A DNA stretch of 64,000 bases from Shigella phage SSP1, in sequence record KY963424. The stretch is one strand, 5' to 3'. Under the pieces are notes generated by a model. That model saw nothing but the letters and a program-made list of their open reading frames with translations. It ran no database searches and was not told the DNA's origin. Below, one piece after another: positions 14,920-60,469 of the stretch. Within the stretch, counting starts at the first letter, position 1. Every line of letters starts with the position of its first letter. The position numbers and the translations under genes are program-made.

Positions 14920-15693
14920 TTAGTCGTCCAGATCGCTTGCAGCTTCTGTGTCAATACCTTTCTGGGAGCCTGCATTGCTATTACCAGATTTGGCATCATC
15001 ATCTTTATTCTCACGACCCTCCATGAAGGCTTGAATTGCTTCTTTCTGCTCTTCATAGGTAGGAACCGGATAGGTTTGTTCCAGAGAAGGAACTTTTTCG
15101 AACTTAATGATGTCGCCATCTTCATCACACATAGCTTCACCGATCAGATCTACGTCTGCAGCATATTGCTTAGATTCTGCACTGTTAGGATCTTGCAGCT
15201 TAATCTGGAACTGCATAGCAGCAATCTGCTGTACATCATACTCAGTATCGAAACCTTTACCTTTTTTCTCGATAGAAATATCAATATCAAACGGAGTTGC
15301 CAGATTCAACTGCTTCATGATAGACTGGATGCCTTTCAGAATCGTAGCCTTGACTTCCATTACTTTCAGTTTGTTATCAGAACGGTCGATAACAAAAGCG
15401 ATATAGTTTTTCTTCGGTTTCAGCGGAACACGATTACCATCTTTATCCAGCTCTTTCTCGAAGAAGCCCATCTCATGAACCGGATCAGCTTTACCACGAA
15501 CAAAGCTCTCTTTGTCACGGTTAAAACGGAGGCATTCGAAAGGAGCTACGTTACCCTCTTTATTAGTCAGCCAATAGACATAACGTGGAAGAACACCAGA
15601 AACGATACGAACACGAGTGATACCGTTGTTGAACTTCAGGAATTCGATTTTATCGTTAGAACCGCCAGTAGTTTCGCCCCAAGACTTAGCCAT
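14920..15693 (-). CDS. Putative ssDNA-binding protein (acidic C-terminal tail)
   Basis: 257 aa; C-terminus DTEAASDLDD acidic tail typical of SSBs; location within replication module; assignment tentative. Confidence 0.45.
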   Translation of the reverse strand: MAKSWGETTGGSNDKIEFLKFNNGITRVRIVSGVLPRYVYWLTNKEGNVAPFECLRFNRDKESFVRGKADPVHEMGFFEKELDKDGNRVPLKPKKNYIAFVIDRSDNKLKVMEVKATILKGIQSIMKQLNLATPFDIDISIEKKGKGFDTEYDVQQIAAMQFQIKLQDPNSAESKQYAADVDLIGEAMCDEDGDIIKFEKVPSLEQTYPVPTYEEQKEAIQAFMEGRENKDDDAKSGNSNAGSQKGIDTEAASDLDD

Positions 15694-21550: not shown

Positions 21551-23019
21551 ATATCGCTGGCCTGTTCACCTGTTGAATTTTCAGCTTTGTCTTTCTTAGC
21601 ACGTTTAGGTTGAGCCGGCTTATCCTTCTCAATAGGGATAACGAACTCAGCTTCCATTTGAGATATATCTTCCATTGCTAGGTTGGTAGTGTTATCCATT
21701 CGCAGAGTTTCCCAGTTCATTTTAGGCATAAACTTCACGCTATCAGAAGAACGAGTCTTAACGAAGTCAAACATAATAGCACCTTGACCATTATCAGCTT
21801 TTGCAGCATTAAGATTAGCAGCCATGTCTGCGGAATCAAGAATCCCCTTTGACATACGTGTTCTACCATCTTGATCGATCTGGTAAGGAGCTACACCAGC
21901 CACGTTATGTTTCTGGCAGATAGATTTGAAAGACGAGCTGACAACCATCTGTTCTTTCCAGTCATACATATCAATGGTTTTAGAGTCTGGAAGTCGGGTT
22001 TGGTTAATATAGTCCAGTAAAGCTACTGTAACTTTATCACCATATCTAGCAACTAATTTATTTAGTTCTACGTCAACTGTTGTAATGGACAGTTCAGGAT
22101 CATAAACAATAATCATAGGAGTATGTAGCTCATACCCTTCTATTAGTTTACTCTCCATATCGTAGAAATCACTCATCTTAGCCATTGTGTACTGTTTAAC
22201 GAAGCTATCGAAAAGCTCTTCACCACCATTAAACATTCTAGCTCTAGTTCTGGCTAATCTCAACAGAGCTGCACCTTCTAGAGTATTATTACGCATTGCT
22301 AGTGCTGATACACCTGCTAACATGGCTAAATTACGCCTAAATACTTCATGTTCTTTCATCTCAATTGAGAAGTATGGAGCAATATCCCCATTCAAATATT
22401 GCTGAACCTGTATGTTTGAACAGATAATGGATTTACCAGTACCACGCCAACCACCAAGCAGTAACGTTTCTGTGCGAGCTAAACCAATTTGAGCGTCGAA
22501 CTCATTACAAATACCAAGAGCGATTAAGTTCAGTTTGGTATCTTCTTCTCTCTGGAAAATACGCATGTTATCTGCGTTGAATACTTTTCCAGTATTCGTT
22601 ACTTTCTCTTCTAATTTTAAGTGAAGGGAGGCAACTCGGTTGAGAATTTCTCCCTGATCCAGCATTGTTAAATCTTGAAGCACGTCTGTTTCTAGAAGCT
22701 TCAGGAATAAATCCTGTGTATATTCGGCTTCTAGGACTTCAAGTGCCTGTTCCATGCTCACTTCTGGAATTTGAGTGTTAGCTAAGACGACTAGAGCTTG
22801 AGAAAGGCGGGCGTTCCTATTAGCTTCAAGCATAAGTGCGTCAATGGACGGCATTGTGTTATATTTTTTATAATAATTCTGGACGGCTTGGTAAATTGAG
22901 GAGAAAGCGTCATTAAAATGATCTTTATGCAGTTTTGAGAATGTTTCCAATGCTATTTGCTTCTGTTCGGAAGCTAGAAGCATCTTCAACACTACAGCTT
23001 GCACGTTAAACAAGGTCAT
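21547..23019 (-). CDS. Replicative helicase, DnaB-like
   Basis: Walker A GGWRGTGKS; RecA-fold C-terminal half; start set at MTLFNV with AGGAGA RBS (ORF extends to 23070). Confidence 0.7.
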   Translation of the reverse strand: MTLFNVQAVVLKMLLASEQKQIALETFSKLHKDHFNDAFSSIYQAVQNYYKKYNTMPSIDALMLEANRNARLSQALVVLANTQIPEVSMEQALEVLEAEYTQDLFLKLLETDVLQDLTMLDQGEILNRVASLHLKLEEKVTNTGKVFNADNMRIFQREEDTKLNLIALGICNEFDAQIGLARTETLLLGGWRGTGKSIICSNIQVQQYLNGDIAPYFSIEMKEHEVFRRNLAMLAGVSALAMRNNTLEGAALLRLARTRARMFNGGEELFDSFVKQYTMAKMSDFYDMESKLIEGYELHTPMIIVYDPELSITTVDVELNKLVARYGDKVTVALLDYINQTRLPDSKTIDMYDWKEQMVVSSSFKSICQKHNVAGVAPYQIDQDGRTRMSKGILDSADMAANLNAAKADNGQGAIMFDFVKTRSSDSVKFMPKMNWETLRMDNTTNLAMEDISQMEAEFVIPIEKDKPAQPKRAKKDKAENSTGEQASDI

Positions 23020-23049
23020 TCTCCTTTGCACGCTTTCGTGCCTTCTAAA

Positions 23050-23095
23050 TGCAAAAAGGGGAAGGAGCATAGCCCCCTCCCCTTAGGTTTAATTT
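23050..23095 (-). terminator. Possible hairpin terminator
   Basis: GGGGAAGG...CCCCCTCCCC imperfect inverted repeat with T-run on minus strand. Confidence 0.35.
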
Positions 23096-23101
23096 ACCAG
23101 A

Positions 23102-23869
23102 TTATTCAGCAGCCGCAGCTTTTGCATCCAGTTTAGCACGCTTAGCGGCACCATCATAGTCCTTAGCAACCAGACCACGACGAGACAGCATAGATTTAAC
23201 ACCACGCTCAGACTTACCAGTTTTCTCAGCGATCTCAGCAACAGTCATGTTAACCAGATCCAGACCTTCTAACAGATCTTCACGAGTTTTAGCACTTGAA
23301 GTTTCCTGTACCGGCATAGCAGCGATACGACCTTCACGAAGCAGGCTCAGAGCTTTACCACGGATCTGCTTAATATTGCGGCCGAAGTGAGCAGCGATAG
23401 CTTCAATAGTAGCACCAGCAACAACCTGATTAACAAAATCAGTTTCTTCATCCGGAGTGAAGGAACGAACAGCAGCAGCTTTTTCAGTTGGCTTAACAGA
23501 AGCGGTCATTTCCAGGCTCAGAATCTTACCCTGTACCTGCTTAGCACCGAACTGACCACCAGCTACAGCAGCAGCGATTTCAGCATAGGTATACTGACCA
23601 GCATGAGCGTTCAGGAAATCAACCAGTTCAGCTTCCTGCTCAGGAGTCCACGGGGATTTCTGTACTTCGTTAGCTTTCTGTACTTCAAAACCTTCTTTAC
23701 GCAGTTTAGAGCCAACAGAGCGAGCAGTAACGTCTTTGCCAGTTTCAGCAGCCAGTTCAGTAGCGATAGCAGCTACTTGTTCTTGAGAGATTACAGCAAC
23801 ACCCAGAGCAGTGGCTTTTGCTTTCAGAGACTCGGTTACACCTTCTACGTTCCAGTTCAGTTTAGACAT
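23102..23869 (-). CDS. Ala-rich hypothetical protein with internal repeats and C-terminal HTH-like segment
   Basis: 255 aa; visibly higher GC and host-like codons (CTG, CGT, GCA) than neighbours; repeated ...EIAAAV/IEAIAAHF...; TVAEIAEKTGKSERGVKSMLSRRGL resembles an HTH. Confidence 0.6.
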   Translation of the reverse strand: MSKLNWNVEGVTESLKAKATALGVAVISQEQVAAIATELAAETGKDVTARSVGSKLRKEGFEVQKANEVQKSPWTPEQEAELVDFLNAHAGQYTYAEIAAAVAGGQFGAKQVQGKILSLEMTASVKPTEKAAAVRSFTPDEETDFVNQVVAGATIEAIAAHFGRNIKQIRGKALSLLREGRIAAMPVQETSSAKTREDLLEGLDLVNMTVAEIAEKTGKSERGVKSMLSRRGLVAKDYDGAAKRAKLDAKAAAAE

Positions 23870-24644
23870 TATTATTTTTCTCCAATAGTTCTTTAATCGA
23901 CAGGATTTCTATCCCATTCGTTTCGGCTTTCTTATAAGATGAGGAAGAACGTTTTGATTCATCCTCACAGATTAGGTATTTGACGTCTTTAGTAACGGAT
24001 TTCTTAACCGTATACCCTAGACTTTCTAAATAGTTTGTTGCATCCGTTCTATTTGCAAAATCTTGCAAAGATCCGGTAATACATACCGCGATTCCGTTTG
24101 GCTGGGCAACTAATTCATCTGTAATTATGATATTAGCTTTTGCACCTCTGATACCAGTTGAGAATTTCCACGGTAGTTCGATAACATCCTTGCCTTGTGG
24201 GGAATTTAGCCAGGCTCTATAGTTTTCTCCAGCCTTGCCGTCAGCCTTCACATCGTGGAAGCTAGTGCAATTTTGGGATAATTTCTTTGCTGCAACCTCT
24301 CCAATTAGAGGGATTCCTAAAGAACCGAGAACTGAATCAAAGTCAATGTCTCCGCGAACTTTAGTATTTAATTCGCTAATTAACTTAGCGGCAACCTTGC
24401 TACCCACGGCTCTAACCAAATCTTCTTCGGTTAGGTAAAACAGTTCTGAAATCTTCGTCAGCTCCAGCTTCTCAATAGTTTTTGGGCCAAAGCCCTTTAA
24501 CTTCATTTTTGTACAGAAGTTCTCAATTAACTTACTTGATTGCGCTGGACAGTTGGACTTATTCCGACAGAATAATTGTCCGTTGACAAGATCTAGCTTA
24601 GAACCACAAGAGGGACATTGTGTTGGAATTTCGATTTTCATCAA
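23862..24644 (-). CDS. NAD-dependent DNA ligase, C-terminal part (zinc finger/HhH/BRCT-like), subunit B
   Basis: CPSCGSKL...CRNKSNCPAQ Cys4 zinc finger, helix-hairpin-helix region, C-terminal BRCT-like fold. Confidence 0.65.
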   Translation of the reverse strand: MMKIEIPTQCPSCGSKLDLVNGQLFCRNKSNCPAQSSKLIENFCTKMKLKGFGPKTIEKLELTKISELFYLTEEDLVRAVGSKVAAKLISELNTKVRGDIDFDSVLGSLGIPLIGEVAAKKLSQNCTSFHDVKADGKAGENYRAWLNSPQGKDVIELPWKFSTGIRGAKANIIITDELVAQPNGIAVCITGSLQDFANRTDATNYLESLGYTVKKSVTKDVKYLICEDESKRSSSSYKKAETNGIEILSIKELLEKNNNV

Positions 24645-24671
24645 ATTTCTTCCTTATCAATTTATATAAAT

Positions 24672-24700
24672 ATTATAGCAAGTATTTAAGCATTTAGCAA
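24672..24700 (-). promoter_or_regulatory. T5-type early promoter in ligase inter-subunit gap (TTGCTA-17-TATAAT)
   Basis: Reverse complement AAAATTGTAGTTGCTAAATGCTTAAATACTTGCTATAAT. Confidence 0.6.
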
Positions 24701-24843
24701 CTACAATTTTAACTAACTTTGCTTACCCTCGCCATAACTTTCTATCCCTCAACTGAATGATAATAGTATATACCTAAGCGGCGAAAATGTCAATAACCAC
24801 TTTATAATTCCGATATGGTAGATGGGTAGCAAAGGGTTATGTA

Positions 24844-25815
24844 TTAATCGTATACTCGCTCTACTATGCACGGGATTACACCACCAGCACGAATTACTCG
24901 AATCTGGCAACCGATCTCTAGATCAAGAGAGTTAATATAATCAACGTTATTAAGAGTCGCTTTAACAATTGTAGCATCATCAATAATTACCGGTTCGAAA
25001 TAACCAACTGGAGTTACTTTACCAGAAGCCCCTACCTGCCACTCAACTTTAGTAAGAGTTGTAATCTCGCCTTCTTCATCCTCTTTAATAGCGAATGCTC
25101 CACGAGGGAATTTATTAGTCCAGCCTTCTCGGAAGAATTTGTTGTTGTCATTAATACGAACAACTTTACCGTCCGTCGGAATCCATTTAAAGAAGGAACG
25201 CACATTAACAACTGTTAAGAAATCTTCATTCTCTAGCCAGAGCATATCTTTTAAATATGATTCTGTAATACCTACAGATTCAGCAGAACACTGGATACCA
25301 TATGCAACGAAGATTAAACCACCTTCCCCGATACGTTGTACGAAATCATCGCTATCTTTGAGGTTAATAGCGCCAGAGGCAAAGTTACGTTTATTTTCTA
25401 CTTCTTTTGTAATTAGAACTTCACCAGTGATTTGAGTAGGTACTTTTTGGGAAATCTTTTGAGGGATATTTAGCAATCTTACGTTGCTTGTGACATCATT
25501 CCCTAGAATACCATTACCACGAGTTAGTGCTTGAACAAAATCTCCATTAATATATAACAGAGAAATCGCACAACCATCTAACTTATCAGTTTCTACCTGA
25601 CCTAATGGATTAAATGGAGGTTTATCTCCACGATTATAATAAACTTTCTGTAAAGAATACATACGATACAGATGTGGAATATCACCTTTAGGCCCGATCT
25701 CTTCTTCTAACGGAAATCTTTTAATCAGACGATCATATTCTTCGTCAGAGATTAAAGACATTCCCTGGTAATATGCTTCTTGACAACGTTTAATAAAGTC
25801 TTTTACATTAGTCAT
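24844..25815 (-). CDS. NAD-dependent DNA ligase, N-terminal adenylation/OB part, subunit A
   Basis: SDEEYDRL and KLDG (adenylation lysine motif) typical of LigA domain Ia/NTase. Confidence 0.75.
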   Translation of the reverse strand: MTNVKDFIKRCQEAYYQGMSLISDEEYDRLIKRFPLEEEIGPKGDIPHLYRMYSLQKVYYNRGDKPPFNPLGQVETDKLDGCAISLLYINGDFVQALTRGNGILGNDVTSNVRLLNIPQKISQKVPTQITGEVLITKEVENKRNFASGAINLKDSDDFVQRIGEGGLIFVAYGIQCSAESVGITESYLKDMLWLENEDFLTVVNVRSFFKWIPTDGKVVRINDNNKFFREGWTNKFPRGAFAIKEDEEGEITTLTKVEWQVGASGKVTPVGYFEPVIIDDATIVKATLNNVDYINSLDLEIGCQIRVIRAGGVIPCIVERVYD

Positions 25816-26773: not shown

Positions 26774-27184
26774 TTACTTAGTGATAGCTCGGATTGCTTC
26801 TGCCAGATGAGCAGCTGCTTTACCGGTCAGTTTGTCGATAATTGCATCATCCAGAAAATCTGGTGCTAGGCCAGCATCAGAGAATGCTGAACGAAGATCG
26901 GCATGAGCTTGGGCTTTGGAAGTACGAGAACCACCAGAGGCTTTTTCTCCAGTAGATGCGCTAGATTTAGAAGCAGAGCCAGCAGCTTTCTTGATATACA
27001 AACCTGCTTTAGTCAGCTTCATACGAAAACCGTTCGGAGTTACACCATTTTCCTGGGCAATTTCGCTAACAATTTCCATGCTAACACCGGGACGTTCATC
27101 CTCTGGGAATTGCTCCATACGAGCAACGTATTCGGAAGACATTTTTTCGAACAGTTCATCAGTCCACTGAGTTGGAGTAGTCAT
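26774..27184 (-). CDS. Hypothetical protein (136 aa)
   Basis: ORF downstream of early promoter at 27242..27270. Confidence 0.5.
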   Translation of the reverse strand: MTTPTQWTDELFEKMSSEYVARMEQFPEDERPGVSMEIVSEIAQENGVTPNGFRMKLTKAGLYIKKAAGSASKSSASTGEKASGGSRTSKAQAHADLRSAFSDAGLAPDFLDDAIIDKLTGKAAAHLAEAIRAITK

Positions 27185-52850: not shown

Positions 52851-53058
52851 TTCTTTAGAACCATATACTCTTATTACAGCAACCACCCATACGGGAGGCC
52901 AACCTTGACTGAAAATCTACTCTAGGGGGCAGGATAAGAGTAGGCTTAAAGGCAAACGGATTGAACGCCGGTATTTGCGTAAACATTGCTGGAGAGCAAC
53001 AACGTGCTACAGGCATTGGGCAGCACGAAACAGATTTTCTGCAACACATAATTCCTCC

Positions 53059-53475
53059 TTAGGAGTTATTACCACCATTTTGAGCTTTTGCAACTTGGCT
53101 TTGGCAGAAGCTATTAAACTTACCCATAAGTGATACAAGCTGTTTCCCATCCTCTGTCTTTGCGAAGTCTTCGAAAAGGGCTAGTACTGCCTGTCCTTCC
53201 GCAGAAACCTGCGGTTGTTGGGTTTGTTGCTGAACTTGCTGCTGCGGCACCTGTTGCTGCATTTGTTGAGGCATTTGCGACTGCCCGCTCATTTGCTGCA
53301 TCATTTGCATAGGACTCACACTTCCAGGGTTTTGCTGGAGTTGTTGCTGCATCTGTTGCGCTTCTGCTAAACGCTGTTGCAATTGTTGTAAGTAGGGGTT
53401 ATCCAGACCCGGAACGGGCTGCTGGGAGCCCATATTTTGATTAAGTCCGTTATTTACAAAACCATATTTACTCAT
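53059..53475 (-). CDS. Gln-rich low-complexity protein (138 aa)
   Basis: About 30% Gln (QQLQQRLAEAQQMQQQLQQ...QQMQQQVPQQQVQQQTQQPQ); RBS GGAGGAG upstream; second gene of minus-strand island. Confidence 0.6.
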   Translation of the reverse strand: MSKYGFVNNGLNQNMGSQQPVPGLDNPYLQQLQQRLAEAQQMQQQLQQNPGSVSPMQMMQQMSGQSQMPQQMQQQVPQQQVQQQTQQPQVSAEGQAVLALFEDFAKTEDGKQLVSLMGKFNSFCQSQVAKAQNGGNNS

Positions 53476-53496
53476 AATGGGCTCCTCCCCTTAATA

Positions 53497-54483
53497 TTAA
53501 GCCGGCAGTTTAGCCTGCAGACCAGCCAGAGTCTGAGTGATAGCACCAAGACTTAAAGCGATTTGATTAATTACCTGACCGTTAGCACCGCTACCCGCAG
53601 CGATTGCTTCACGTAGGCGACATGCGTCTAACTCATCCTGGATACGCGCAGTAGTTACACCAGCTATCGCAGTCTGAAGTTCACAGCAACATTCAGCGAT
53701 CTGACGTTCCAAAGAGTTCTGGTTAGCACACATCTGAGCCTGAACAGCGGCAAACTGGTTATTAGTTTGTAAAGTCTGCTGGAAAGCGATCTGTGCAGAA
53801 TCAAACTTATCTTGTGCACGAGCTATCTGATTAGCTGCGAAAGATTGATCAATCTGGCGAGAAAGATCGAACTGACCCTGAATAACGTTGCGAGTTTCCT
53901 GGCAGATTTGATTAGACAGATTAGCACCCGTACCATAGATCGTAGTTAGTACAGACTGAGTATCACGGCTCTGGTTTTGGGATGTCTGGCTAAAACCATT
54001 GTTAACTGCGCTTAAAACAGCTCCAGTACCCTGGTTAGCTTCTGTACGAGTAGTGTTAATAGCTGCTAGAATACTAGCGGTATCTTGGTTCTGAAGTACT
54101 GCATCAACTGCGGTACCTTCACCAACTACACCACGTCCACCGAATCCACCGAAACCACCGAATCCGCCTGTTAATAGAGCACCGATTAGGATAGCTCCGA
54201 ATAGCCCCATACCTTCACCACCGAAAGCACCTGCGTTTGCTGGGTAACCACCCAGTAGGCCAGGGAAGCCACTAGTGAATACGTTTACTGGTTCTTGCAT
54301 TTTATGTTTTCCATATTTATGACAATGTTCATCATCGTCATCTTCTTCATCGTCGTGTTCGCGATGTTTCTCTTCGTAGGCTCTGACCTTCTCCCACTTT
54401 TTCTTATCTGATTCCTCGTGACGGTGCAGTTCTGCTGCAACGCTAGCGACGGTCTCAGGACTCTTAGCTACTTCTTCTGTCAT
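53497..54483 (-). CDS. Membrane protein with acidic/His-rich N-terminus, glycine-zipper TM (GGFGGFGGFGG) and Gln/Asn/Thr-rich C-terminal domain
   Basis: Start MTEEVAK with AGGAGGTG RBS (ORF track extends to 54543); MGLFGAILIGALLTGGFGGFGGFGG hydrophobic Gly-zipper; long Q/N/A/T-rich tail. Confidence 0.6.
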   Translation of the reverse strand: MTEEVAKSPETVASVAAELHRHEESDKKKWEKVRAYEEKHREHDDEEDDDDEHCHKYGKHKMQEPVNVFTSGFPGLLGGYPANAGAFGGEGMGLFGAILIGALLTGGFGGFGGFGGRGVVGEGTAVDAVLQNQDTASILAAINTTRTEANQGTGAVLSAVNNGFSQTSQNQSRDTQSVLTTIYGTGANLSNQICQETRNVIQGQFDLSRQIDQSFAANQIARAQDKFDSAQIAFQQTLQTNNQFAAVQAQMCANQNSLERQIAECCCELQTAIAGVTTARIQDELDACRLREAIAAGSGANGQVINQIALSLGAITQTLAGLQAKLPA

Positions 54484-54545
54484 TTTTTGACACCTCCTAG
54501 TATATAGAAAATGTGTGTCTCTTTGATCACTCATCCATAACATAT

Positions 54546-54574
54546 ACTTTACACTACCCCAGCGAAAATGTCAA
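54546..54574 (-). promoter_or_regulatory. Host-like sigma70 promoter for minus-strand island (TTGACA-17-TAAAGT)
   Basis: Reverse complement CCCTTGACATTTTCGCTGGGGTAGTGTAAAGT; differs from the phage early-promoter family. Confidence 0.5.
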
Positions 54575-55289: not shown

Positions 55290-55378
55290 GGAAGAATAGC
55301 ATAACGGTATTGCAGCAGATTGCTAATCTGTCGGTTTGAAATATAGCCTTGTGGGTTCGATTCCCACTTCTTCCGCCA
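55290..55378 (+). tRNA. tRNA-Ser(GCT), type II
   Basis: Acceptor GGAAGAA/TTCTTCC, anticodon loop TTGCTAA, long variable arm, T-arm GTGGG-TTCGATT-CCCAC, encoded CCA. Confidence 0.8.
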
Positions 55379-55384
55379 GATTTT

Positions 55385-55462
55385 GGTTCTCAAGCTCATA
55401 TGGTATGAGCACCCGGCTCATAACCGGAAGGTACGTAGGTTCGAATCCTCGGGGAGCCACCA
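55385..55462 (+). tRNA. tRNA with CAT anticodon (Met or Ile2)
   Basis: Acceptor GGTTCTC/GGGAGCC (with G-U pairs), D-stem GCTC/GAGC, anticodon loop CTCATAA, T-loop TTCGAAT with imperfect stem, CCA encoded. Confidence 0.6.
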
Positions 55463-55480
55463 GTTAAATAGAGGTCACAA

Positions 55481-55669
55481 ATGGATCTATATATAGTTTA
55501 TGTTGTGTTTATTCAAGATAGAGAATACCCGGATGAATATAAAAAAGGATATAGGTTAGCCAGAGCTACCTCTGTAGCCCAAGCTATGGATAAAGTGGCA
55601 GATTATATGATTACGGTAGAAAACGTACACTATATCGACTACCTTGAAGCCTCAAAAGTAATTGACTAA
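55481..55669 (+). CDS. Hypothetical protein (62 aa)
   Basis: ORF immediately after tRNA; weak RBS. Confidence 0.4.
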   Translation: MDLYIVYVVFIQDREYPDEYKKGYRLARATSVAQAMDKVADYMITVENVHYIDYLEASKVID

Positions 55670-55678
55670 GGAGACTAT

Positions 55679-55864
55679 ATGTCTAAGTTTCAAGAACTCA
55701 AGCAAGAGCTAGAAGAATGTGCCTGCCCCGAATGTAGGGGAATTGGTGAAAGTTCTGATGCAGAAGCAGGAGATACTTTTTGCAATATCTGGGTTTGCTC
55801 AAATTGCAATGGTACAGGTATTAATCCTAACTGCGGTATTTCCCTAGATATTGAACGAGGATAA
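55679..55864 (+). CDS. Small Cys-rich (zinc-ribbon-like) protein (61 aa)
   Basis: CPECRG...CSNCNGTG two CxxC pairs; AGGAGACTATATG RBS. Confidence 0.45.
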   Translation: MSKFQELKQELEECACPECRGIGESSDAEAGDTFCNIWVCSNCNGTGINPNCGISLDIERG

Positions 55865-55965
55865 TACCTGTGAAACTAAAAGATTATTATATTGGTTGGT
55901 TTGTAGGATTAGTAGTAGGATTTTCACTAGGCTATAATATGTATCAACTAATAAACTGATTACAT

Positions 55966-56042
55966 GGGGGTGTAATCGAATTGGCATAGGTACTGGACTT
56001 AAAATTCAGGTTTTGTGGGTTCGAATCCCACCACCCCTACCA
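55966..56042 (+). tRNA. tRNA with anticodon TAA (Leu-type anticodon) but short variable arm
   Basis: Acceptor GGGGGTG/CACCCCT, anticodon arm CTGGA-CTTAAAA-TTCAG, T-arm GTGGG-TTCGAAT-CCCAC, CCA encoded; D-arm non-canonical. Confidence 0.55.
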
Positions 56043-56057
56043 AATTAAGGAAATAAG

Positions 56058-56225
56058 ATGTATAGACATCCACCTCCGCCAACACGTCGTTCTAGAGAAG
56101 TTATTCTCATGGAATTGACTAAAAACTTCAAGGCAACCCTTGAAGATAGAGATCTAGGCACGGATGAAGACATTGATTTTATTTGTAGACTATTAAAGAT
56201 GAAACTGGAGAAACAACATGGCTAA
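56058..56225 (+). CDS. Hypothetical small protein (55 aa)
   Basis: AAGGAAATAAGATG RBS right after tRNA; below ORF-track cut-off. Confidence 0.35.
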   Translation: MYRHPPPPTRRSREVILMELTKNFKATLEDRDLGTDEDIDFICRLLKMKLEKQHG

Positions 56226-56424
56226 TCCTGAAATTACCGCACAACGCTTCATGCTTAAAGGCATGATTGCTGAGGCAGGTATAACTCAAGAGGTTGCAGA
56301 TTTTCATAAGCAATTTCTTGATATTATAACTCTAGCTAAAGAGACTGGAGAAAAAGAGCACGGAGCAGCAATTATGGCTATATCTCTTATTAGTCTAGAC
56401 TTGGCTGAAGAATCTGGAGTTTAG
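56218..56424 (+). CDS. Hypothetical protein (68 aa)
   Basis: ORF overlapping previous stop. Confidence 0.4.
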   Translation: MANPEITAQRFMLKGMIAEAGITQEVADFHKQFLDIITLAKETGEKEHGAAIMAISLISLDLAEESGV

Positions 56425-56454
56425 CTCCTCCAAACAGAATTTTTAAAAATGTAC

Positions 56455-56484
56455 TTGCCTTTTGCTTTAAATTTCTGATATAAT
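56455..56484 (+). promoter_or_regulatory. T5-type early promoter (TTGCCT-18-TATAAT)
   Basis: AAAAATGTACTTGCCTTTTGCTTTAAATTTCTGATATAAT. Confidence 0.55.
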
Positions 56485-56514
56485 AGTTATATAAATTGAT
56501 GAAGGAGTTAACGA

Positions 56515-56790
56515 ATGCAAAATCGTGTTATAGCTGCTGGTATTGAAAGTGCAATCTGTAAATCCTGGGAAGGCTGGGAAGGTGAGATTGAATGGCTTTA
56601 TTTCTACGATGTAGAACTTCTGCCGGAAATTAAAGCTAAATGTGTTGAAGCTGGCATGGCTCCAGATGCAAAAGCTGATATTGATATTTCAATGTCTGAA
56701 CTTAAAGGTCGTGTAATCACTGTTAGTGATGAGGGTGAAGAAGTTTTTGAACTTCCGTTCTCCTTAACTGTCACTCCTAAGTTCGACTAG
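56515..56790 (+). CDS. Hypothetical acidic protein (91 aa)
   Basis: GAAGGAG RBS. Confidence 0.45.
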   Translation: MQNRVIAAGIESAICKSWEGWEGEIEWLYFYDVELLPEIKAKCVEAGMAPDAKADIDISMSELKGRVITVSDEGEEVFELPFSLTVTPKFD

Positions 56791-56826
56791 CTAATACAGC
56801 ATTGGGCAAGTTCTTTAAAATTTGAC

Positions 56827-56855
56827 TTGCTCAGTGCCTTAAAACTTGATATAAT
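56827..56855 (+). promoter_or_regulatory. T5-type early promoter (TTGCTC-17-TATAAT) upstream of tRNA-Tyr
   Basis: AAAATTTGACTTGCTCAGTGCCTTAAAACTTGATATAAT. Confidence 0.6.
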
Positions 56856-56979
56856 AGTTATCTAATTTGGAAACATATCTGAATGAGAAGTAATTAAGCG
56901 AGTTGCTTTGAGGGGTAAAGTCAGGAAATCCTGAAATATTCCACCTTGAGTTTAACCGACTTACTTTTCATTCAAATAT

Positions 56980-57060
56980 GAGGGATTGGCTCAGTGGCGA
57001 CGGCGCCTGGCTGTAGACCGGGTATATCACGCGGAGGTTCGAGTCCTCCATCCCTCACCA
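56980..57060 (+). tRNA. tRNA-Tyr(GTA)
   Basis: Acceptor GAGGGAT/ATCCCTC perfect, anticodon arm CCTGG-CTGTAGA-CCGGG, extended variable region, T-arm GGAGG-TTCGAGT-CCTCC, CCA encoded. Confidence 0.7.
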
Positions 57061-57078
57061 AATTACTAAGGAAGTAAT

Positions 57079-57624
57079 ATGCACAATAAGTTAATAAATG
57101 AGCTTCAAAAAAGACAAATAATAACAAAAACTAAGGAGTTTGATATAACTCCAGATTTAATAGTTGAATGTTCAAAAGTTTACTTAGAATTAAGTAACAC
57201 AAAAGCTAAGAAAGTCTCTTTAGGGGATCTTAGATATAACGTTAAACTATTGTGCTTATCATTAATTAAATTTAAACAGGAAAATAAACTTGCTATAAAA
57301 GAAGGCTTCATATATTTTATAGCAAATAAGGCCTGGCCCAATTATTTTAAGATTGGTATGTCAGCTAACCCAAAGAAACGCTTAGCGAACTATCAAACAT
57401 ATAGCCCCTTTAGGGATTATACAATGCTACACTGGTCTTTCTGGTTTGATAGAAAGGAAGGTGAAAAGTTTGTCCATAGTCTCTATCATGATAGAGATCA
57501 TGAATGGGTTAAGTTGCCTCAAAGAAAACTAAATAAAATATTTGAACAAATTAATAAACTTTCTGGTTTGGAACATTTAGTACAGAAAGTTAATAGAGAA
57601 ATAGTTAATGCACCTATCGTCTAA
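57079..57624 (+). CDS. T5orf172/GIY-YIG-like domain protein (mobile-element-type)
   Basis: GFIYFIANKAWPNYFKIGMSANPKKRLANYQTYSP resembles the T5orf172 (GIY-YIG-related) signature; AT-rich codon usage; stop overlaps tRNA-Glu 5' end. Confidence 0.55.
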   Translation: MHNKLINELQKRQIITKTKEFDITPDLIVECSKVYLELSNTKAKKVSLGDLRYNVKLLCLSLIKFKQENKLAIKEGFIYFIANKAWPNYFKIGMSANPKKRLANYQTYSPFRDYTMLHWSFWFDRKEGEKFVHSLYHDRDHEWVKLPQRKLNKIFEQINKLSGLEHLVQKVNREIVNAPIV

Positions 57625-57684
57625 TGGTTAGGACATCAGGATTTCAATCTGAGAATCGGAGTTCAATTCTCCGTGGGTGTACCA
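57610..57684 (+). tRNA. tRNA-Glu(TTC)
   Basis: Acceptor GCACCTA/TGGGTGT (two G-U), D-stem GTC/GAC, anticodon arm TCAGG-ATTTCAA-TCTGA, T-arm CGGAG-TTCAATT-CTCCG, CCA encoded. Confidence 0.75.
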
Positions 57685-57692
57685 GTTTCTGC

Positions 57693-57769
57693 ATTCCTAG
57701 AGTGTTACTGGACAGCATGTCGGTCTCCAAAACCGTACGGTCTAGGTTCGAGTCCTAGTAGGTTTGCCA
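57693..57769 (+). tRNA. tRNA-Trp(CCA)-like (acceptor stem with two U-U mismatches)
   Basis: Anticodon arm CGGT-CTCCAAA-ACCG, D-stem GTGT/GCAT, T-arm CTAGG-TTCGAGT-CCTAG, CCA encoded; acceptor ATTCCTA/TAGGTTT pairs only 5 of 7. Confidence 0.5.
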
Positions 57770-57775
57770 AAATTT

Positions 57776-57850
57776 GCACCTTTAGCTGAGATGGATTAGC
57801 GCTTGCCTGAAGAGCTTGAGAGGTTCGTTCGATACGAACAGGGTGCACCA
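57776..57850 (+). tRNA. tRNA-Phe(GAA)-like
   Basis: Acceptor GCACCTT/AGGGTGC, D-stem GCTG/TAGC, anticodon loop CTGAAGA (stem has two U-U), T-arm GTTCG-TTCGATA-CGAAC, CCA encoded. Confidence 0.6.
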
Positions 57851-57852
57851 AT

Positions 57853-58140
57853 TTGAATGAGCTGCTGATGCATCCTGAAAACTTCTTTATTTACTGCGCG
57901 GATAAGTCGCTGAAACGTAGAATTAACAAAGTCTATCATTATCGTGCTAGTCAACAGCCTTATGTATATGCTTTTGACGGTGATCACATTCCACTAGAAC
58001 AATTATCTTGTGATTACATGATATTGAAGAACTTTGACGAGACGAAGATCTCAAGCGTTCATAATCGACAGAATCCATTAACGTGGAAATATAAGAAGAA
58101 AAAGAAAGGCATCAAATTCTTAAAAAATGTAGTTGCTTAG
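57853..58140 (+). CDS. Hypothetical protein (95 aa)
   Basis: ORF following tRNA block; 3' end overlaps a promoter; weak evidence. Confidence 0.35.
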   Translation: MNELLMHPENFFIYCADKSLKRRINKVYHYRASQQPYVYAFDGDHIPLEQLSCDYMILKNFDETKISSVHNRQNPLTWKYKKKKKGIKFLKNVVA

Positions 58141-58161
58141 TTTCCAAAAGTTCTGTATAAT
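58133..58161 (+). promoter_or_regulatory. T5-type early promoter (TTGCTT-17-TATAAT)
   Basis: AAAAATGTAGTTGCTTAGTTTCCAAAAGTTCTGTATAAT + ACATAAATTGAACTGGAG. Confidence 0.6.
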
Positions 58162-58190
58162 AATTACATAAATTGAACTGGAGAAGCAAC

Positions 58191-58415
58191 ATGACAGAAC
58201 AAGAATTGAATGAACGTAAGCTGGTAATGCTTCGCTTACTAAATATTTTCTCTGGTATGGACGGTGGAATTGACTTTGTTCATCTACGTTCTTTCGTAGA
58301 AGAAGCCGAAGGCGAATCTATCACTAAAATCCTTAAACACATGGGATTACTTTTAGATGCTGCTAATGTGGCTACTGAATATAAACTAGAAGATCTACCG
58401 AAGCGTGTTAAATGA
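58191..58415 (+). CDS. Hypothetical protein (74 aa)
   Basis: Start MTEQEL with GGAGAAGCAACATG RBS. Confidence 0.45.
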   Translation: MTEQELNERKLVMLRLLNIFSGMDGGIDFVHLRSFVEEAEGESITKILKHMGLLLDAANVATEYKLEDLPKRVK

Positions 58416-58603
58416 GAAAGTTAGTTAAATTTAAGTGTTGTGGTTCTGAACATATTTTCACACATCTTCGTGAATTTAAAATGTGTGATTGTGGTAAATC
58501 AGGCTATGACTCAGGAGATGGGTTCTACACCCGTACTCTAGGGAACTTCAATGATCTAGAATTTGAAGATCTCGAAAAACAAGATAAATCGACCGTTGGC
58601 TGA
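58412..58603 (+). CDS. Small Cys-containing protein (63 aa)
   Basis: Translationally coupled; CCGSEH...CDCGKSG; stop overlaps tRNA-Cys 5' end. Confidence 0.4.
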   Translation: MRKLVKFKCCGSEHIFTHLREFKMCDCGKSGYDSGDGFYTRTLGNFNDLEFEDLEKQDKSTVG

Positions 58604-58665
58604 ATGGCTTAGGCGAAGGATTGCAAATCCTTTTTATGTGAGTTCAAATCTCATGCGGTCGTCCA
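58590..58665 (+). tRNA. tRNA-Cys(GCA)
   Basis: Acceptor CGACCGT/GCGGTCG, anticodon arm AAGGA-TTGCAAA-TCCTT, T-arm GTGAG-TTCAAAT-CTCAT, CCA encoded. Confidence 0.75.
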
Positions 58666-58667
58666 AT

Positions 58668-58808
58668 TTGCTGAAAGAATTGTTAAATCAATTCAGGCAC
58701 GCGTAGGAACACTGTCTCCGCAATTGAAAGATGAGGCACGGTTTGGAGAGGTATGCCGCTACACGCTACGGTGCTAACTCCGTCTAGGTGAAAATCCTAG
58801 TCAGCAAT
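58668..58808 (+). ncRNA. 141-nt tRNA-like structured RNA (perfect 7-bp terminal stem, T-arm-positioned hairpin, long insertion)
   Basis: 5' TTGCTGA pairs perfectly with 3' TCAGCAA; hairpin CTAGG-TGAAAAT-CCTAG immediately precedes the 3' strand; no ORF. Confidence 0.35.
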
Positions 58809-58817
58809 ATAAATTTA

Positions 58818-58900
58818 GGGTCGTTAGCCAAGCGGTTTGGCGGTGGACTGTTAATCCATGTCGAAAGACAACGTAGGTTCGAATCCTACACGGCCCGCCA
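58818..58900 (+). tRNA. tRNA with Asn-type anticodon arm (GTT) but extended 13-nt variable arm
   Basis: Acceptor GGGTCGT/ACGGCCC, D-stem GCC/GGC, anticodon arm GTGGA-CTGTTAA-TCCAT (close to the E. coli tRNA-Asn arm as recalled), variable GTCGAAAGACAAC, T-arm GTAGG-TTCGAAT-CCTAC, CCA encoded. Confidence 0.6.
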
Positions 58901-59002
58901 AATTCTGTGTAGAGTTAAGTAAACCGGTAGCCAACCAGCTATCATTGCTGATATCGAATTCAGCCACAGATACCATTTTCATTAATAACTGAGGAAACAA
59001 GC

Positions 59003-59188
59003 ATGTCCAAGAATGTAATTGCACAGTTAGAAGTTCATCGTGATAGCACTATCAACAATATTGAAGTTGAGAAGAAATACATAGAAGAACTTAAACACGA
59101 TATACTAGTAAGTCTCAATCGTCTTAATGTACGAAAAGAGTTTCTTAAAGAACTTAATGCAGCTATTGAAAAACTCAAAGCTGAGTAA
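59003..59188 (+). CDS. Hypothetical coiled-coil protein (61 aa)
   Basis: GAGGAAACAAGCATG RBS. Confidence 0.45.
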   Translation: MSKNVIAQLEVHRDSTINNIEVEKKYIEELKHDILVSLNRLNVRKEFLKELNAAIEKLKAE

Positions 59189-59195
59189 ATGAATT

Positions 59196-59777
59196 ATGCA
59201 CGGAATATTTTTACCTATTCCTATGTTTGATGAATATCTGGTAAGTCTAGATGGGTTAGTGTTCAGTATTAAATCAAATAAAATACTAACCCCAATAACT
59301 AGTAATTATGGATATGTATCTGTACGCCTACATCATAACGGTAGGCAAAGAAATACTGGTATACATAGAATCATAGCATGTGCCTTTAAAAGGTTACCTA
59401 GTTTAGACTCTGTACTAGAGGTTGATCATATTGATACAGATATCACCTATTGGGGATTAAATAATCTACAAGTCCTTACTAAAGAACAGCATTTAGAAAA
59501 AACCCTGAAAGATAAGGGCTATAATAAACTAATACATAATAAACAGTGTAGTATATGTGGTGAACCTATATCACTGAAAGCAGATAAGTGTCAAAAATGC
59601 TCATCACATAAACTGAAAGATCCATCTATTACTAAAGAAATAATAGAATCTACTGTAAAAGAGTTAGGATGGTCTGGTGCTGGAAGAAGATTATCTTATT
59701 CTGATAACGGGTTAAGAAAACGTTATAAAGCATTAGGTGGTGATCCAAAAGAATTAAAAAAGTTAAAGGTACTATAG
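59196..59777 (+). CDS. HNH homing endonuclease (NUMOD4-like N-terminus + HNH)
   Basis: IHRIIACAF...EVDHIDTDITYWGLNNLQVLTKEQHLEKT HNH core; paralog of 62914..63474 with shared C-terminal SGAGRRLSYSDNGLRKRYKALGG; stop overlaps tRNA-Asp. Confidence 0.7.
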   Translation: MHGIFLPIPMFDEYLVSLDGLVFSIKSNKILTPITSNYGYVSVRLHHNGRQRNTGIHRIIACAFKRLPSLDSVLEVDHIDTDITYWGLNNLQVLTKEQHLEKTLKDKGYNKLIHNKQCSICGEPISLKADKCQKCSSHKLKDPSITKEIIESTVKELGWSGAGRRLSYSDNGLRKRYKALGGDPKELKKLKVL

Positions 59778-59842
59778 TCTAACGGTTAGGATACTCCCCT
59801 GTCACGGGAGAGGTAGGGTTTCGATTACCCTTAGTACCGCCA
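59768..59842 (+). tRNA. tRNA-Asp(GTC)
   Basis: Acceptor GGTACTA/TAGTACC perfect, anticodon arm CTCCC-CTGTCAC-GGGAG, T-arm AGGGT-TTCGATT-ACCCT, CCA encoded. Confidence 0.8.
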
Positions 59843-59868
59843 AACTAAACTAGCACGAGAAATATGCT

Positions 59869-60216: not shown

Positions 60217-60220
60217 TAAA

Positions 60221-60329
60221 ATTTCAGTGCAGAACACGGAGCTAGCAATTCGGAAGTGCTGACTCATGATAAGCTGCCTATGTACTTGCTAAGCGGTCGT
60301 GTCCAAGACTCGGACTCTTGCACTGAAAA
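60221..60329 (+). ncRNA. Structured RNA candidate closed by about 11-bp terminal stem
   Basis: TTTCAGTGCAG (60222-60232) is complementary to CTTGCACTGAAA (60317-60328); internal hairpin GTCC-AAGACTC-GGAC; no ORF. Confidence 0.35.
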
Positions 60330-60338
60330 CAATCAAAC

Positions 60339-60459: not shown

Positions 60460-60469
60460 ACACTATAAA

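What the first reader, a model, noticed from the sequence alone, without database searches (positions are those of the whole stretch)
23102..23869. Compositionally atypical Ala-rich gene in the replication block
This 255-aa ORF has visibly higher GC and E. coli-like high-expression codons compared with its AT-rich neighbours, internal sequence repeats, and a possible C-terminal HTH. It lies between the DnaB-like helicase and the ligase. It is either a very highly expressed early protein or a horizontally acquired gene of host-like origin.
Basis: seen in the sequence. Interest (0 to 1): 0.4.

Follow-up and report, generated by a model that had tools for sequence, protein, structure and literature searches.

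The report
Phage T5 gene D5, abundant DNA-binder
The flagged gene is the long-known D5 DNA-binding protein of a T5-like phage; its unusual composition is real and points to selection for very high expression, not to a gene taken from the host.

Summary
The window is a T5-like phage (Demerecviridae). ORF 23102-23869 (minus strand, 255 aa) is gene D5: 253/255 residues match T5 D5 (T5.118), with the same ligB-D5-helicase order.

- Codon adaptation index (E. coli weights) is 0.723, rank 1 of 60 ORFs (mean 0.287). The same protein written with window-average codons gives 0.329 +/- 0.026.
- Effective number of codons is 33 against 45.7.
- Alanine is 17.3% against 7.3%.
- GC is 0.474 against 0.39, but GC3 is average (0.325 vs 0.314). 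The extra GC comes mostly from amino-acid composition.
- E. coli genes scored the same way have GC3 of 0.38-0.57.

The bias is an old family trait. D5 orthologues rank first to third for codon bias in six phage genera. No copy was found in 5,426 E. coli genomes. The only "cellular" hits are misbinned phage contigs. Host origin is therefore rejected and high expression is supported.

The protein is predicted to be four tandem three-helix HTH modules (pLDDT 93). Conservation is concentrated in each module's third helix.

Best explanation: a very abundant early protein that binds double-stranded DNA, as classical T5 work describes. The gene is already known and the finding is of low interest. Only the size and conservation of the codon bias seem unreported.

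The parts
23102..23869 (-). Gene D5 coding sequence (255 aa plus stop; 27.1 kDa, pI 6.8)
   Evidence: ORF list. 253/255 residues identical to T5 D5, T5.118. PHROG 323 'transcriptional regulator, D5-like', E = 2.7e-71. MW and pI.
23660..23869 (-). HTH module R1 (aa 1-70): helices 11-22, 29-43, 49-58; third helix ARSVGSKLRK
   Evidence: AlphaFold2 model, pLDDT 93. Weak profile match to engrailed homeodomain, E = 0.004. R50, K55, L56 and R57 are invariant in 38 homologues.
23471..23659 (-). HTH module R2 (aa 71-133), Myb-like: helices 76-88, 95-101, 109-118; third helix AKQVQGKILS
   Evidence: Pfam Myb_DNA-binding is weak here (17.5 bits) and is matched at E <= 0.01 by 9 of 38 members (best E = 4.2e-6). 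Homologous to R3: hhalign probability 96%, E = 2.9e-9.
23294..23470 (-). HTH module R3 (aa 134-192): helices 139-150, 155-162, 166-178; third helix IKQIRGKALSLLR
   Evidence: Pfam HTH_23 at aa 151-184 (21.6 bits) is matched by 24 of 38 members. BLASTP R2 vs R3, E = 4e-6.
23105..23293 (-). HTH module R4 (aa 193-255): helices 210-217 and 221-231 (ERGVKSMLSRR), then a C-terminal Ala/Lys-rich helix 240-254
   Evidence: Pfam Sigma70_r4_2 at aa 204-230, 28.6 bits, above the 25.7-bit cut-off, and found in 35 of 38 members.
23880..23883 (-). Shine-Dalgarno GGAG, followed by a 10-nt A/T-only spacer before the ATG; it lies inside the end of ligB
   Evidence: Read from the sequence GAACTATTGGAGAAAAATAATAATG. 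Its function is inferred.
23862..24644 (-). ligB (NAD-dependent DNA ligase subunit B), upstream cistron of the same transcription unit; its stop overlaps the D5 start by 8 nt (ATGTCTAA); CAI only 0.227
   Evidence: The same 8-nt overlap is annotated in T5, Vibrio phage phi 3 and Aeromonas phage TS3.
24765..24793 (-). Promoter-like site TTGACA-17-TATACT, at the position of T5 early promoter P-K28b
   Evidence: Consensus scan, 11 of 12 matches. Coordinates map onto the T5 'promoter P-K 28b' feature. Activity was not tested here.
24672..24700 (-). Promoter-like site TTGCTA-17-(TG)TATAAT, at the position of T5 early promoter P-K28a
   Evidence: Consensus scan, 10 of 12 matches plus extended -10 TG. 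Maps onto the T5 'promoter P-K 28a' feature.
23056..23084 (-). Intrinsic terminator 18 nt after the D5 stop: 13-bp stem (8 G-C), 3-nt loop, then a T run
   Evidence: Terminator scan. RNA fold -25.6 kcal/mol, z = -2.8 against shuffles.
23342..23372 (-). DNA copy 1 of the 31-nt internal repeat (encodes the R3 third helix, KQIRGKALSL)
   Evidence: the repeat finder family D6.
23513..23543 (-). DNA copy 2 of the 31-nt internal repeat (encodes the R2 third helix, KQVQGKILSL); 77% identical, 171 nt from copy 1
   Evidence: the repeat finder family D6.

Best explanation
This is gene D5 of a T5-like phage. It is an early gene transcribed with ligB from the two early promoters P-K28b and P-K28a, and the transcript ends at a strong hairpin terminator just after D5.

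The product is a 27-kDa protein built from four tandem three-helix helix-turn-helix modules. Each module carries a conserved Lys/Arg-bearing third helix. The protein binds double-stranded DNA with little sequence specificity and is needed in near-stoichiometric amounts relative to the replicating phage DNA. Occupying that DNA modulates replication, allows late transcription and shuts off early genes.

Because so many copies are needed within minutes, selection has driven its codons to those read by the host's major tRNAs (GCT, GGT, CGT, CTG, ACT, TCT, ATC, AAC, CAG, CCG). They have moved away from the A-ending codons that the rest of the genome uses and that the phage's own tRNAs serve. The Ala/Gly/Val/Glu-rich composition, not host ancestry, raises the GC content.

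Shown here: the identity, the codon bias and its conservation, the four-module model, and the operon signals as sequence matches. Taken from the literature and the T5 annotation: DNA binding and the roles in replication and late transcription. Inferred: non-specific coating and stoichiometric demand as the cause of the bias.
For: Identity:
- 99% identical to T5 D5, with the same neighbours.
- PHROG 323, E = 2.7e-71.
- About 900 phage records carry it, from Escherichia, Salmonella, Klebsiella, Proteus, Aeromonas and Vibrio phages.

Expression:
- CAI 0.723, rank 1 of 60; z = 15 against recodings of the same protein; ENC 33.
- This equals E. coli rpsC/rplB/fusA scored with the same weights.
- It exceeds the T5 major head protein (0.630), the only late gene that comes near.
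- The other top-ranking genes are also DNA-binding proteins: D11 single-strand binding protein (0.554) and D3 (0.524).
- D5 ranks first to third for CAI and first or second for lowest ENC in T5, Vibrio phi 3, Proteus M4H10_20, Klebsiella Kpn02, Aeromonas TS3 and Vibrio Thalassa.
- The D5 orthologue was among the most abundant proteins by mass spectrometry in a phiR2-01 preparation, although it is not a T5 virion protein (PMC8624392).

Signals:
- Promoter-like sites fall at the T5 P-K28b and P-K28a positions. There is a GGAG ribosome-binding site and a terminator of -25.6 kcal/mol.

Structure:
- AlphaFold2 pLDDT 93 with four three-helix modules.
- HTH Pfam families recur across 38 homologues.
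- 15 of 22 invariant residues lie in the four third helices, which make up 17% of the chain (p = 2.7e-8).

Function:
- The T5 annotation reads 'DNA-binding protein; required for DNA replication and late transcription'.
- McCorquodale et al. 1979, J Virol 29:322, is cited in PMC12630848.
- Purified D5 binds retron msDNA and is toxic when expressed alone in E. coli (bioRxiv 10.64898/2026.07.11.737809).

Avoidance of phage-tRNA codons: TTA 5% vs 27%, CTA 0 vs 21%, GCA 5% vs 32%, GGA 0 vs 22%.
Against: - No expression measurement was made here. Codon adaptation is an indirect proxy for abundance.
- D5 shares its promoters with ligB, whose CAI is only 0.227. No separate D5 promoter was found inside ligB. 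A much higher D5 yield would therefore have to arise at translation, which is untested.
- The protein is nearly neutral (pI 6.8; only R4 is basic, pI 9.1), unlike typical basic DNA-coating proteins.
- The Sigma70_r4-like module would also fit a specific contact with RNA polymerase or a promoter.
- The retron preprint reports a plaque-forming T5 escaper with a W74* stop in D5. This sits badly with an indispensable stoichiometric role unless suppression or a mixed population is involved.
- The classical biochemistry papers could not be read here. Cooperative, non-specific binding and abundance figures rest on my recollection of them.
They behave as expected on E. coli genes, and ENC is independent of them.
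Confidence: 0.75

Rival explanations
1. D5 is a sequence-specific transcription factor: an early-to-late switch protein that contacts RNA polymerase or late promoters through its sigma-region-4-like module. Under this reading it acts at few sites, and the codon bias reflects speed of appearance rather than bulk amount.
For: - Sigma70_r4_2 scores above the Pfam cut-off at aa 204-230 and is found in 35 of 38 members.
- Many records annotate the gene as 'late gene transcription factor' or 'transcription factor D5'.
- The T5 annotation says it is required for late transcription and involved in shutoff of expression.
- The protein is near-neutral, pI 6.8.
Against: - Ordinary regulators do not carry the strongest codon bias in a genome, above the major head protein.
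- The two genes next in codon adaptation are DNA-binding proteins too: the single-strand binding protein D11 and the protein D3.
- Four equally conserved third helices suggest a long DNA contact rather than one operator.
- No sigma region 2 was detected; region 3 gave only a below-cut-off hit (20.6 vs 25.3 bits) on the same residues as the region-4 match.
- The protein was recovered in bulk by mass spectrometry.
Confidence: 0.2
2. The gene was acquired horizontally from the enterobacterial host or another cellular genome, and its composition is a remnant of that origin.
For: - GC is 0.474 against 0.39 for the phage, and the gene uses E. coli optimal codons.
- HTH modules are common in cellular proteins.
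Against: - GC3 is 0.325, the phage average, while E. coli genes scored here have 0.38-0.57.
- The GC excess is reproduced by amino-acid composition alone (0.451).
- The gene, its place between ligB and the helicase, and its top-ranking bias are conserved in six genera with different hosts and down to about 50% identity.
- blastn finds nothing in 5,426 E. coli genomes.
- The five hits among 185,579 species genomes are phage contigs with ligA-ligB-D5-helicase-primase-pol order.
- Of 1.84 billion representative proteins, only 507 match at E <= 0.001.
Confidence: 0.02
3. The codon pattern is a by-product of composition or mutation bias (Ala-rich protein, strand asymmetry), with no selection on translation.
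For: - The protein is 17.3% Ala and rich in GNN codons.
- The gene lies in a long minus-strand block with negative GC skew.
Against: - Holding the amino-acid sequence fixed and drawing codons from the rest of the window gives CAI 0.329 +/- 0.026, maximum 0.439 in 10,000 trials, against 0.723 observed.
- Neighbours on the same strand and in the same operon are unbiased (ligB 0.227).
- The preferred codons include both T-ending (GCT, GGT, CGT, ACT, TCT) and G/C-ending ones (CTG, CAG, ATC, AAC, CCG). They track E. coli optimal codons rather than any one base.
Confidence: 0.02

Closest known systems
Bacteriophage T5 gene D5 protein (T5.118, YP_006946.1; PHROG 323)
   Same: 253 of 255 residues are identical. 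The length is the same, as is the 8-nt overlap with ligB, and the helicase gene follows in both. The codon bias is also the same (T5 D5 CAI 0.695, ENC 31.2, rank 1 of 26).
   Different: Two substitutions (D25A, A37T relative to T5). The host phage is closer to Salmonella/Escherichia T5-like isolates (98.8% nt identity to SaI_NFG_5581) than to T5 itself.
Bacterial nucleoid-associated proteins and phage abundant DNA-binding proteins (HU, Fis, H-NS; SPO1 TF1)
   Same: A small, abundant protein thought to bind double-stranded DNA broadly and to influence replication and transcription. This functional analogy is inferred from codon bias plus the literature.
   Different: No sequence or fold relation: no Pfam hit to these families. 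D5 is a single-chain array of four HTH modules. HU, Fis and H-NS act as small oligomers (my own knowledge, not tested here), whereas D5 ran as a 26-kDa species in mass photometry. D5 is also near-neutral, pI 6.8.
Tandem Myb/homeodomain-like HTH arrays (Myb R2R3, Tc3/Mos1 bipartite HTH, Timeless DNA-binding domain)
   Same: Repeated three-helix modules joined by short linkers. There are weak sequence and fold hits to engrailed homeodomain (E = 0.004), Timeless (E = 0.11-0.13) and Tc3 transposase. The Myb Pfam model matches up to E = 4.2e-6 in family members.
   Different: All matches are below family thresholds for this protein, and Foldseek against the PDB gives nothing better than E = 0.1. 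The four-module architecture of about 250 aa is confined to Demerecviridae-like phages.
T5 D3 protein (window 26774-27184)
   Same: Its N-terminal 69 residues align with D5 module R1 (hhalign probability 88%, E = 3.4e-6). It is also an early DNA-binding protein with high codon adaptation (0.524). It too was mutated in a retron-Kva2 escape phage, though it did not trigger the retron when expressed alone.
   Different: 136 aa with a single such module, followed by a low-complexity linker and an unrelated C-terminal helical region.

Membership tests
T5 D5 protein family (PHROG 323, 'transcriptional regulator, D5-like') | Full-length sequence similarity to T5 D5 | tested here: met
   253/255 identical. 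PHROG 323 E = 2.7e-71 over aa 1-253.
T5 D5 protein family (PHROG 323, 'transcriptional regulator, D5-like') | Conserved position: ligB - D5 - replicative helicase - primase - polymerase | tested here: met
   Window; T5; Vibrio, Proteus, Klebsiella and Thalassa phages. In Aeromonas TS3 only ligase, a ligB-sized unnamed ORF, D5 and polymerase are annotated.
T5 D5 protein family (PHROG 323, 'transcriptional regulator, D5-like') | Binds double-stranded DNA; needed for normal replication and late gene expression | not testable with these tools
   Taken from the T5 annotation, from the title of McCorquodale 1979 as cited, and from msDNA binding in the retron preprint.
Sigma-70 family | Region 4 HTH | tested here: met
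   PF08281, 28.6 bits against a 25.7-bit cut-off. Only profile positions 23-49 of 54 are matched.
Sigma-70 family | Regions 2 and 3 (core binding, -10 recognition) | tested here: not met
   No region 2 hit. Region 3 scores 20.6 bits, below the 25.3-bit cut-off, and falls on the same residues as the region 4 hit. D5 is therefore not a sigma factor.
Myb/SANT DNA-binding domain (PF00249) | Domain score above the Pfam gathering threshold | tested here: inconclusive
   17.5 bits against a 24.4-bit cut-off in this protein. 9 of 38 homologues match at E <= 0.01, best E = 4.2e-6.
Host-derived (E. coli-like) gene | Detectable homologue in host chromosomes and host-like GC3 | tested here: not met
   No blastn match in 5,426 complete E. 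coli genomes. GC3 is 0.325 against 0.38-0.57 for E. coli genes. Hits in 'cellular' genome collections are phage contigs.
Highly expressed gene class (by codon adaptation) | CAI in the range of host ribosomal-protein and elongation-factor genes, and an outlier within its own genome | tested here: met
   0.723 against E. coli translation/RNA-polymerase genes at 0.44-0.82, mean 0.631. Rank 1 of 60, z = 4.2. Actual protein level was not measured.

The most novel reading that the evidence does not exclude
D5, together with its partial paralogue D3, may form a protein coat on replicating T5-like DNA, a kind of phage chromatin. Besides switching transcription, such a coat could physically exclude host enzymes. 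This could be the unidentified, non-specific factor behind the lack of Dam/Dcm/restriction-modification methylation on progeny DNA of T5-like phages. That trait is reported as unexplained and is shared by Tequintavirus and Epseptimavirus (PMC10644984), as D5 is. The extreme, family-wide codon optimisation would then reflect the need to cover tens of megabases of DNA per cell. Nothing here tests this. Restriction insensitivity at DNA entry cannot depend on D5, which is encoded on the second-step-transfer DNA.
Probability: 0.1. Interest if true: 0.6.

Novelty: already known. Interest (0 to 1): 0.15.

Why it matters
This finding mainly removes a false lead. A compositionally odd gene in a phage replication block looks like a host-derived insertion, but it is a core phage gene under strong translational selection.

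The quantitative result adds a little. D5 is more codon-adapted than the major head protein, and D5, the single-strand binding protein D11 and D3 are the top three in every genus examined. This says these phages need their DNA-binding proteins in bulk. It also identifies D5 as the prime candidate for any DNA-coating function in T5-like phages. D5 has recently gained interest as the trigger of a type IX retron, so its four-module architecture and conserved third helices may help that work.

Tried and rejected
- Host origin was rejected: no E. coli match, phage-like GC3 and family-wide conservation.
- Composition artefact was rejected: fixed-protein recoding simulation.
- Foldseek of the model against the PDB gave nothing below E = 0.1. 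The flexible multi-domain model (pTM 0.50) limits whole-chain matching.
- A PDB profile search gave only a marginal engrailed homeodomain hit.
- BFVD returned the Vibrio phage D5 and assorted low-TM multi-HTH phage proteins.
- The DRT4 paper on a 'phage-encoded DNA binding protein' concerns T5 ORF55, not D5.
- McCorquodale 1979 (PMC353123) and Davison 2015 (PMC4743489) are not held, so the classical biochemistry could not be checked.
- A search for published remarks on D5 codon usage found none.
- No separate promoter for D5 was found inside ligB.
- The long antisense ORF 23387-23896 (+) was dismissed as a by-product of codon bias.
- The long proteins with 3 to 7 matched stretches in the representative search (P0245, P0248, P0254, P0260, P0262) are generic Myb/HTH repeat arrays, not D5 orthologues.
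Full report
**What the window is.** The 64-kb window is 39.4% GC. Region 22000-25000 is 98.8% identical to Salmonella phage SaI_NFG_5581 and matches 515 phage records, about 430 of them near-identical T5-like Salmonella/Escherichia isolates. The block around the finding reads, on the minus strand: ligA, ligB, the flagged ORF, DnaB-like helicase, primase, an 855-aa DNA polymerase. The T5 reference has the same order.

**Identity of the ORF.** ORF 23102-23869 (minus strand, 255 aa) is 253/255 identical to T5 D5 (T5.118). It hits PHROG 323 'transcriptional regulator, D5-like' at E = 2.7e-71. The T5 record annotates D5 as 'DNA-binding protein; required for DNA replication and late transcription; also is involved in shutoff of expression of ...'. 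The founding paper is McCorquodale et al. [quoted passage not shown] I recall further biochemistry by Rice et al. 1979 (J Biol Chem) and Fujimura & Roop 1983 (J Virol). As I remember it, they described a roughly 29-kDa protein that binds duplex DNA cooperatively, is made in large amounts and inhibits T5 polymerase on nicked duplexes. I could not read these papers, so those points are recollection.

**Checking the observation: composition.**
- The gene's GC is 0.474, against 0.398 and 0.379 in the 1-kb flanks. Only 0.47% of equal-sized windows reach it.
- The rise is in codon positions 1 and 2 (0.659, 0.443). GC3 is 0.325 against a window mean of 0.314 +/- 0.060.
- Alanine is 17.3% of residues against 7.3% elsewhere.
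- Rewriting the same protein with average window codons still gives GC 0.451.
- 'Higher GC' is therefore real, but it comes mostly from amino-acid composition.

**Checking the observation: codons.**
- CAI with the Sharp & Li E. coli weights is 0.723. This is rank 1 of 60 ORFs (mean 0.287, sd 0.105).
- Ten thousand recodings of the same protein with window-average synonymous usage give 0.329 +/- 0.026, with a maximum of 0.439.
- ENC, which needs no reference set, is 33.1 against 45.7 +/- 4.2.
- Preferred codons: GCT 89%, GGT 84%, CGT 83%, CTG 89%, ACT 81%, CAG 83%, ATC 70%, AAC 71%.
tufA scores 0.817, fusA 0.744, sixteen translation/RNA-polymerase genes average 0.631 and twelve other genes average 0.277.
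- D5 therefore scores like an E. coli ribosomal-protein gene. Those E. coli genes have GC3 of 0.38-0.57, far above D5's 0.325.

**Checking the observation: repeats and HTH.**
- aa 71-133 and 134-192 are homologous (BLASTP E = 4e-6; profile comparison 96% probability, E = 2.9e-9).
- This shows in the DNA as a 31-nt repeat 171 nt apart. There is also an exact 12-mer duplicated 18 nt apart, encoding EVQK...EVQK.
- The C-terminal HTH is real: Sigma70_r4_2 above the Pfam cut-off, present in 35 of 38 homologues.

**Host origin or high expression?** If the bias were a relic of transfer, it should be lineage-specific and fading. It is neither. The D5 orthologue sits between ligB and the helicase in Vibrio phage phi 3, Proteus phage M4H10_20, Klebsiella phage Kpn02 and Vibrio phage Thalassa. 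In Aeromonas phage TS3, whose record names few genes, it follows the ligase and a ligB-sized unnamed ORF. These orthologues are 50-77% identical to the window protein. In each 30-40-kb early region it ranks first to third for CAI and first or second for lowest ENC.

In each phage where the neighbouring genes are named, the genes that share the top places with D5 are D11 (single-strand DNA-binding protein) and D3 (DNA-binding protein). In T5's late region only the major head protein comes near (0.630, against 0.695 for T5 D5). Other structural genes score 0.18-0.34.

No homologous DNA exists in 5,426 complete E. coli genomes. A scan of one genome per 185,579 species found five hits, all short MAG contigs from unrelated phyla that carry ligA-ligB-D5-helicase-primase-polymerase. 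These are misbinned phage contigs. An exhaustive profile search of 1.84 billion representative proteins found only 507 at E <= 0.001. The strong hits are almost all 235-260-aa proteins. Host origin is rejected, and selection for translation of an abundant protein is the reading that fits.

Independent support comes from a proteomic study of the T5-like Yersinia phage phiR2-01. There the D5 orthologue was in the most abundant class of proteins detected, although it is not a T5 virion component (PMC8624392).

**Relation to the phage's own tRNAs.** The window carries 18 tRNA genes. They include Leu-UAA, Leu-UAG, Ala-UGC, Gly-UCC, Pro-UGG and Gln-UUG. The rest of the genome uses the matching codons freely: TTA 27%, CTA 21%, GCA 32%, GGA 22%, CCA 41%, CAA 50%. 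D5 avoids them: 5%, 0%, 5%, 0%, 20%, 17%. D5 is tuned to the host's major tRNAs, not to the phage supplement. I infer that this suits a protein that must accumulate early.

**Expression signals.** D5 starts 8 nt before the ligB stop (ATGTCTAA). T5, phi 3 and TS3 have the same overlap. A GGAG lies 10 nt upstream of the ATG, followed by an A/T-only spacer.

The only promoter-like sites on this strand nearby are TTGACA-17-TATACT (24793-24765) and TTGCTA-17-TG-TATAAT (24700-24672). They map exactly onto the T5 features 'promoter P-K 28b' and 'P-K 28a' upstream of ligB. A 13-bp hairpin followed by a T run lies 18 nt after the stop (-25.6 kcal/mol).

The unit is therefore promoters - ligB - D5 - terminator. 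ligB in the same unit has CAI 0.227. Any large excess of D5 over LigB must arise at translation, which is an untested inference and a weak point.

**Architecture.** With a 38-sequence alignment, AlphaFold2 gives mean pLDDT 93 and pTM 0.50. This fits well-defined domains with loose mutual orientation. There are four modules:
- R1: helices 11-22, 29-43, 49-58.
- R2: helices 76-88, 95-101, 109-118.
- R3: helices 139-150, 155-162, 166-178.
- R4: helices 210-217, 221-231, followed by an Ala/Lys-rich C-terminal helix 240-254.

Pfam assigns HTH families to each module across the family: HTH_33/homeodomain-like, Myb, HTH_23 and Sigma70_r4_2. Fifteen of the 22 invariant residues fall in the four third helices (ARSVGSKLRK, AKQVQGKILS, IKQIRGKALSLLR, ERGVKSMLSRR). 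These helices are 17% of the chain (hypergeometric p = 2.7e-8). By position in the motif they are presumably the DNA-recognition helices, and all four look functional.

No solved structure is close. Foldseek against the PDB gives E >= 0.1, with weak hits to other multi-HTH proteins. The profile search gives engrailed homeodomain at E = 0.004. BFVD returns the Vibrio phage D5 at TM 0.77, then low-TM multi-HTH phage proteins. Natural variants with five modules exist (P0121). The protein is 27.1 kDa with pI 6.8, and only R4 is basic.

**Recent literature.** A 2026 preprint identifies T5 D5 as the trigger of the type IX retron-Kva2. It describes an HTH fold from AlphaFold3 and reports purified D5 as a 26-kDa species. 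It shows concentration-dependent remodelling of the retron complex, attributed to binding of its msDNA, and notes toxicity of D5 alone in E. coli. Its escape phages carried mutations in D5, D3 and D2, including a W74* stop in D5. That result is hard to square with an essential gene and deserves checking.

**Mechanism and confidence.** That this is D5 is effectively certain. That it is made in very large amounts is strongly supported but indirect. The proposed mode of action is that four HTH modules lay the protein along duplex DNA at high density, and that this occupancy affects replication and allows the early-to-late switch. This is the best-supported account, perhaps 60%. It combines the literature with the codon-bias and architecture evidence here. 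The main rival is a site-specific late-transcription factor using the sigma-region-4-like module (about 20%). The two are not exclusive. The overall confidence of 0.75 given for the best explanation weighs the near-certain identity and the well-supported high expression together with this less certain mode of action.

**Novelty.** The gene, its product and its general role are known, so the finding is filed as 'already known'. I found no published note on the extreme codon adaptation of D5, its conservation, or the shared pattern with D11 and D3. The library is incomplete, so this is a modest addition, not a discovery.

The most novel reading not excluded is that D5 coats phage DNA densely enough to exclude host methyltransferases. 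That would explain the unexplained methylation avoidance of T5-like phages (PMC10644984). I put this at about 10%.

Noticed in passing
window 26774-27184 (-): D3 (136 aa, PHROG 1725 'DNA binding protein') has the third-highest CAI in the window (0.524). Its N-terminal 69 residues align with D5 module R1 (hhalign probability 88%, E = 3.4e-6). It is probably a paralogous HTH module. D3 was also mutated in a retron-Kva2 escape phage.
   Followed up: partly
window 14920-15693 (-): D11 (single-strand DNA-binding protein, PHROG 1607) has the second-highest CAI (0.554). D5, D11 and D3 form the top three in the window and in each of the phage genera examined where the genes are named.
   Followed up: yes
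window 23019-23070 (-): The helicase ORF's first ATG (23070, the equivalent of the start used in the T5 annotation) lies inside the D5 terminator hairpin (23056-23084). The ATG at 23019, preceded by AAAGGAG, looks like the real start and would shorten the protein by 17 residues.
   Followed up: no
window 23387-23896 (+): A 169-aa Ser-rich ORF runs antisense to D5. It is almost certainly spurious. D5 nearly lacks the codons TTA, CTA and TCA (1, 0 and 1), which would create antisense stops, and GCT reads as AGC (Ser) on the other strand.
   Followed up: yes
window 52900-54550; gene 53497-54543 (-): This is the only other stretch as GC-rich as D5 (up to 0.482). It holds a 348-aa gene of unknown function (PHROG 8119) on the opposite strand to most ORFs around it, with moderate CAI (0.396).
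   Followed up: no
window 55290-63538 (+): A cluster of 18 tRNA genes. D5 avoids the codons cognate to the U34 tRNAs among them (TTA, CTA, GCA, GGA, CCA, CAA), while the rest of the window uses those codons heavily.
   Followed up: partly
L008-L012 (MAG contigs): Five metagenome-assembled 'genomes' labelled Cyanobacteriota, Methanosarcinales, Porticoccaceae, Aureispira and Alphaproteobacteria contain contigs with T5-like ligA-ligB-D5-helicase-primase-polymerase order. These are misbinned Demerecviridae-like phage DNA.
   Followed up: yes
P0121, P0196 (homologues): Natural D5 relatives with extra modules exist: P0121 (309 aa) has module R2 duplicated, and P0196 (284 aa) has five repeats. The module number is therefore not fixed.
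   Followed up: no
window 23862-25815 (-): The NAD-dependent DNA ligase is split into two genes, ligA (24844-25815) and ligB (23862-24644), with promoter-like sites between them, as annotated in T5.
   Followed up: no
P0019, P0038: Partial proteins 99-100% identical to this D5 are deposited as 'Enterococcus faecalis' hypothetical proteins on contigs of 531-669 nt. This is most likely phage contamination of those assemblies.
   Followed up: no
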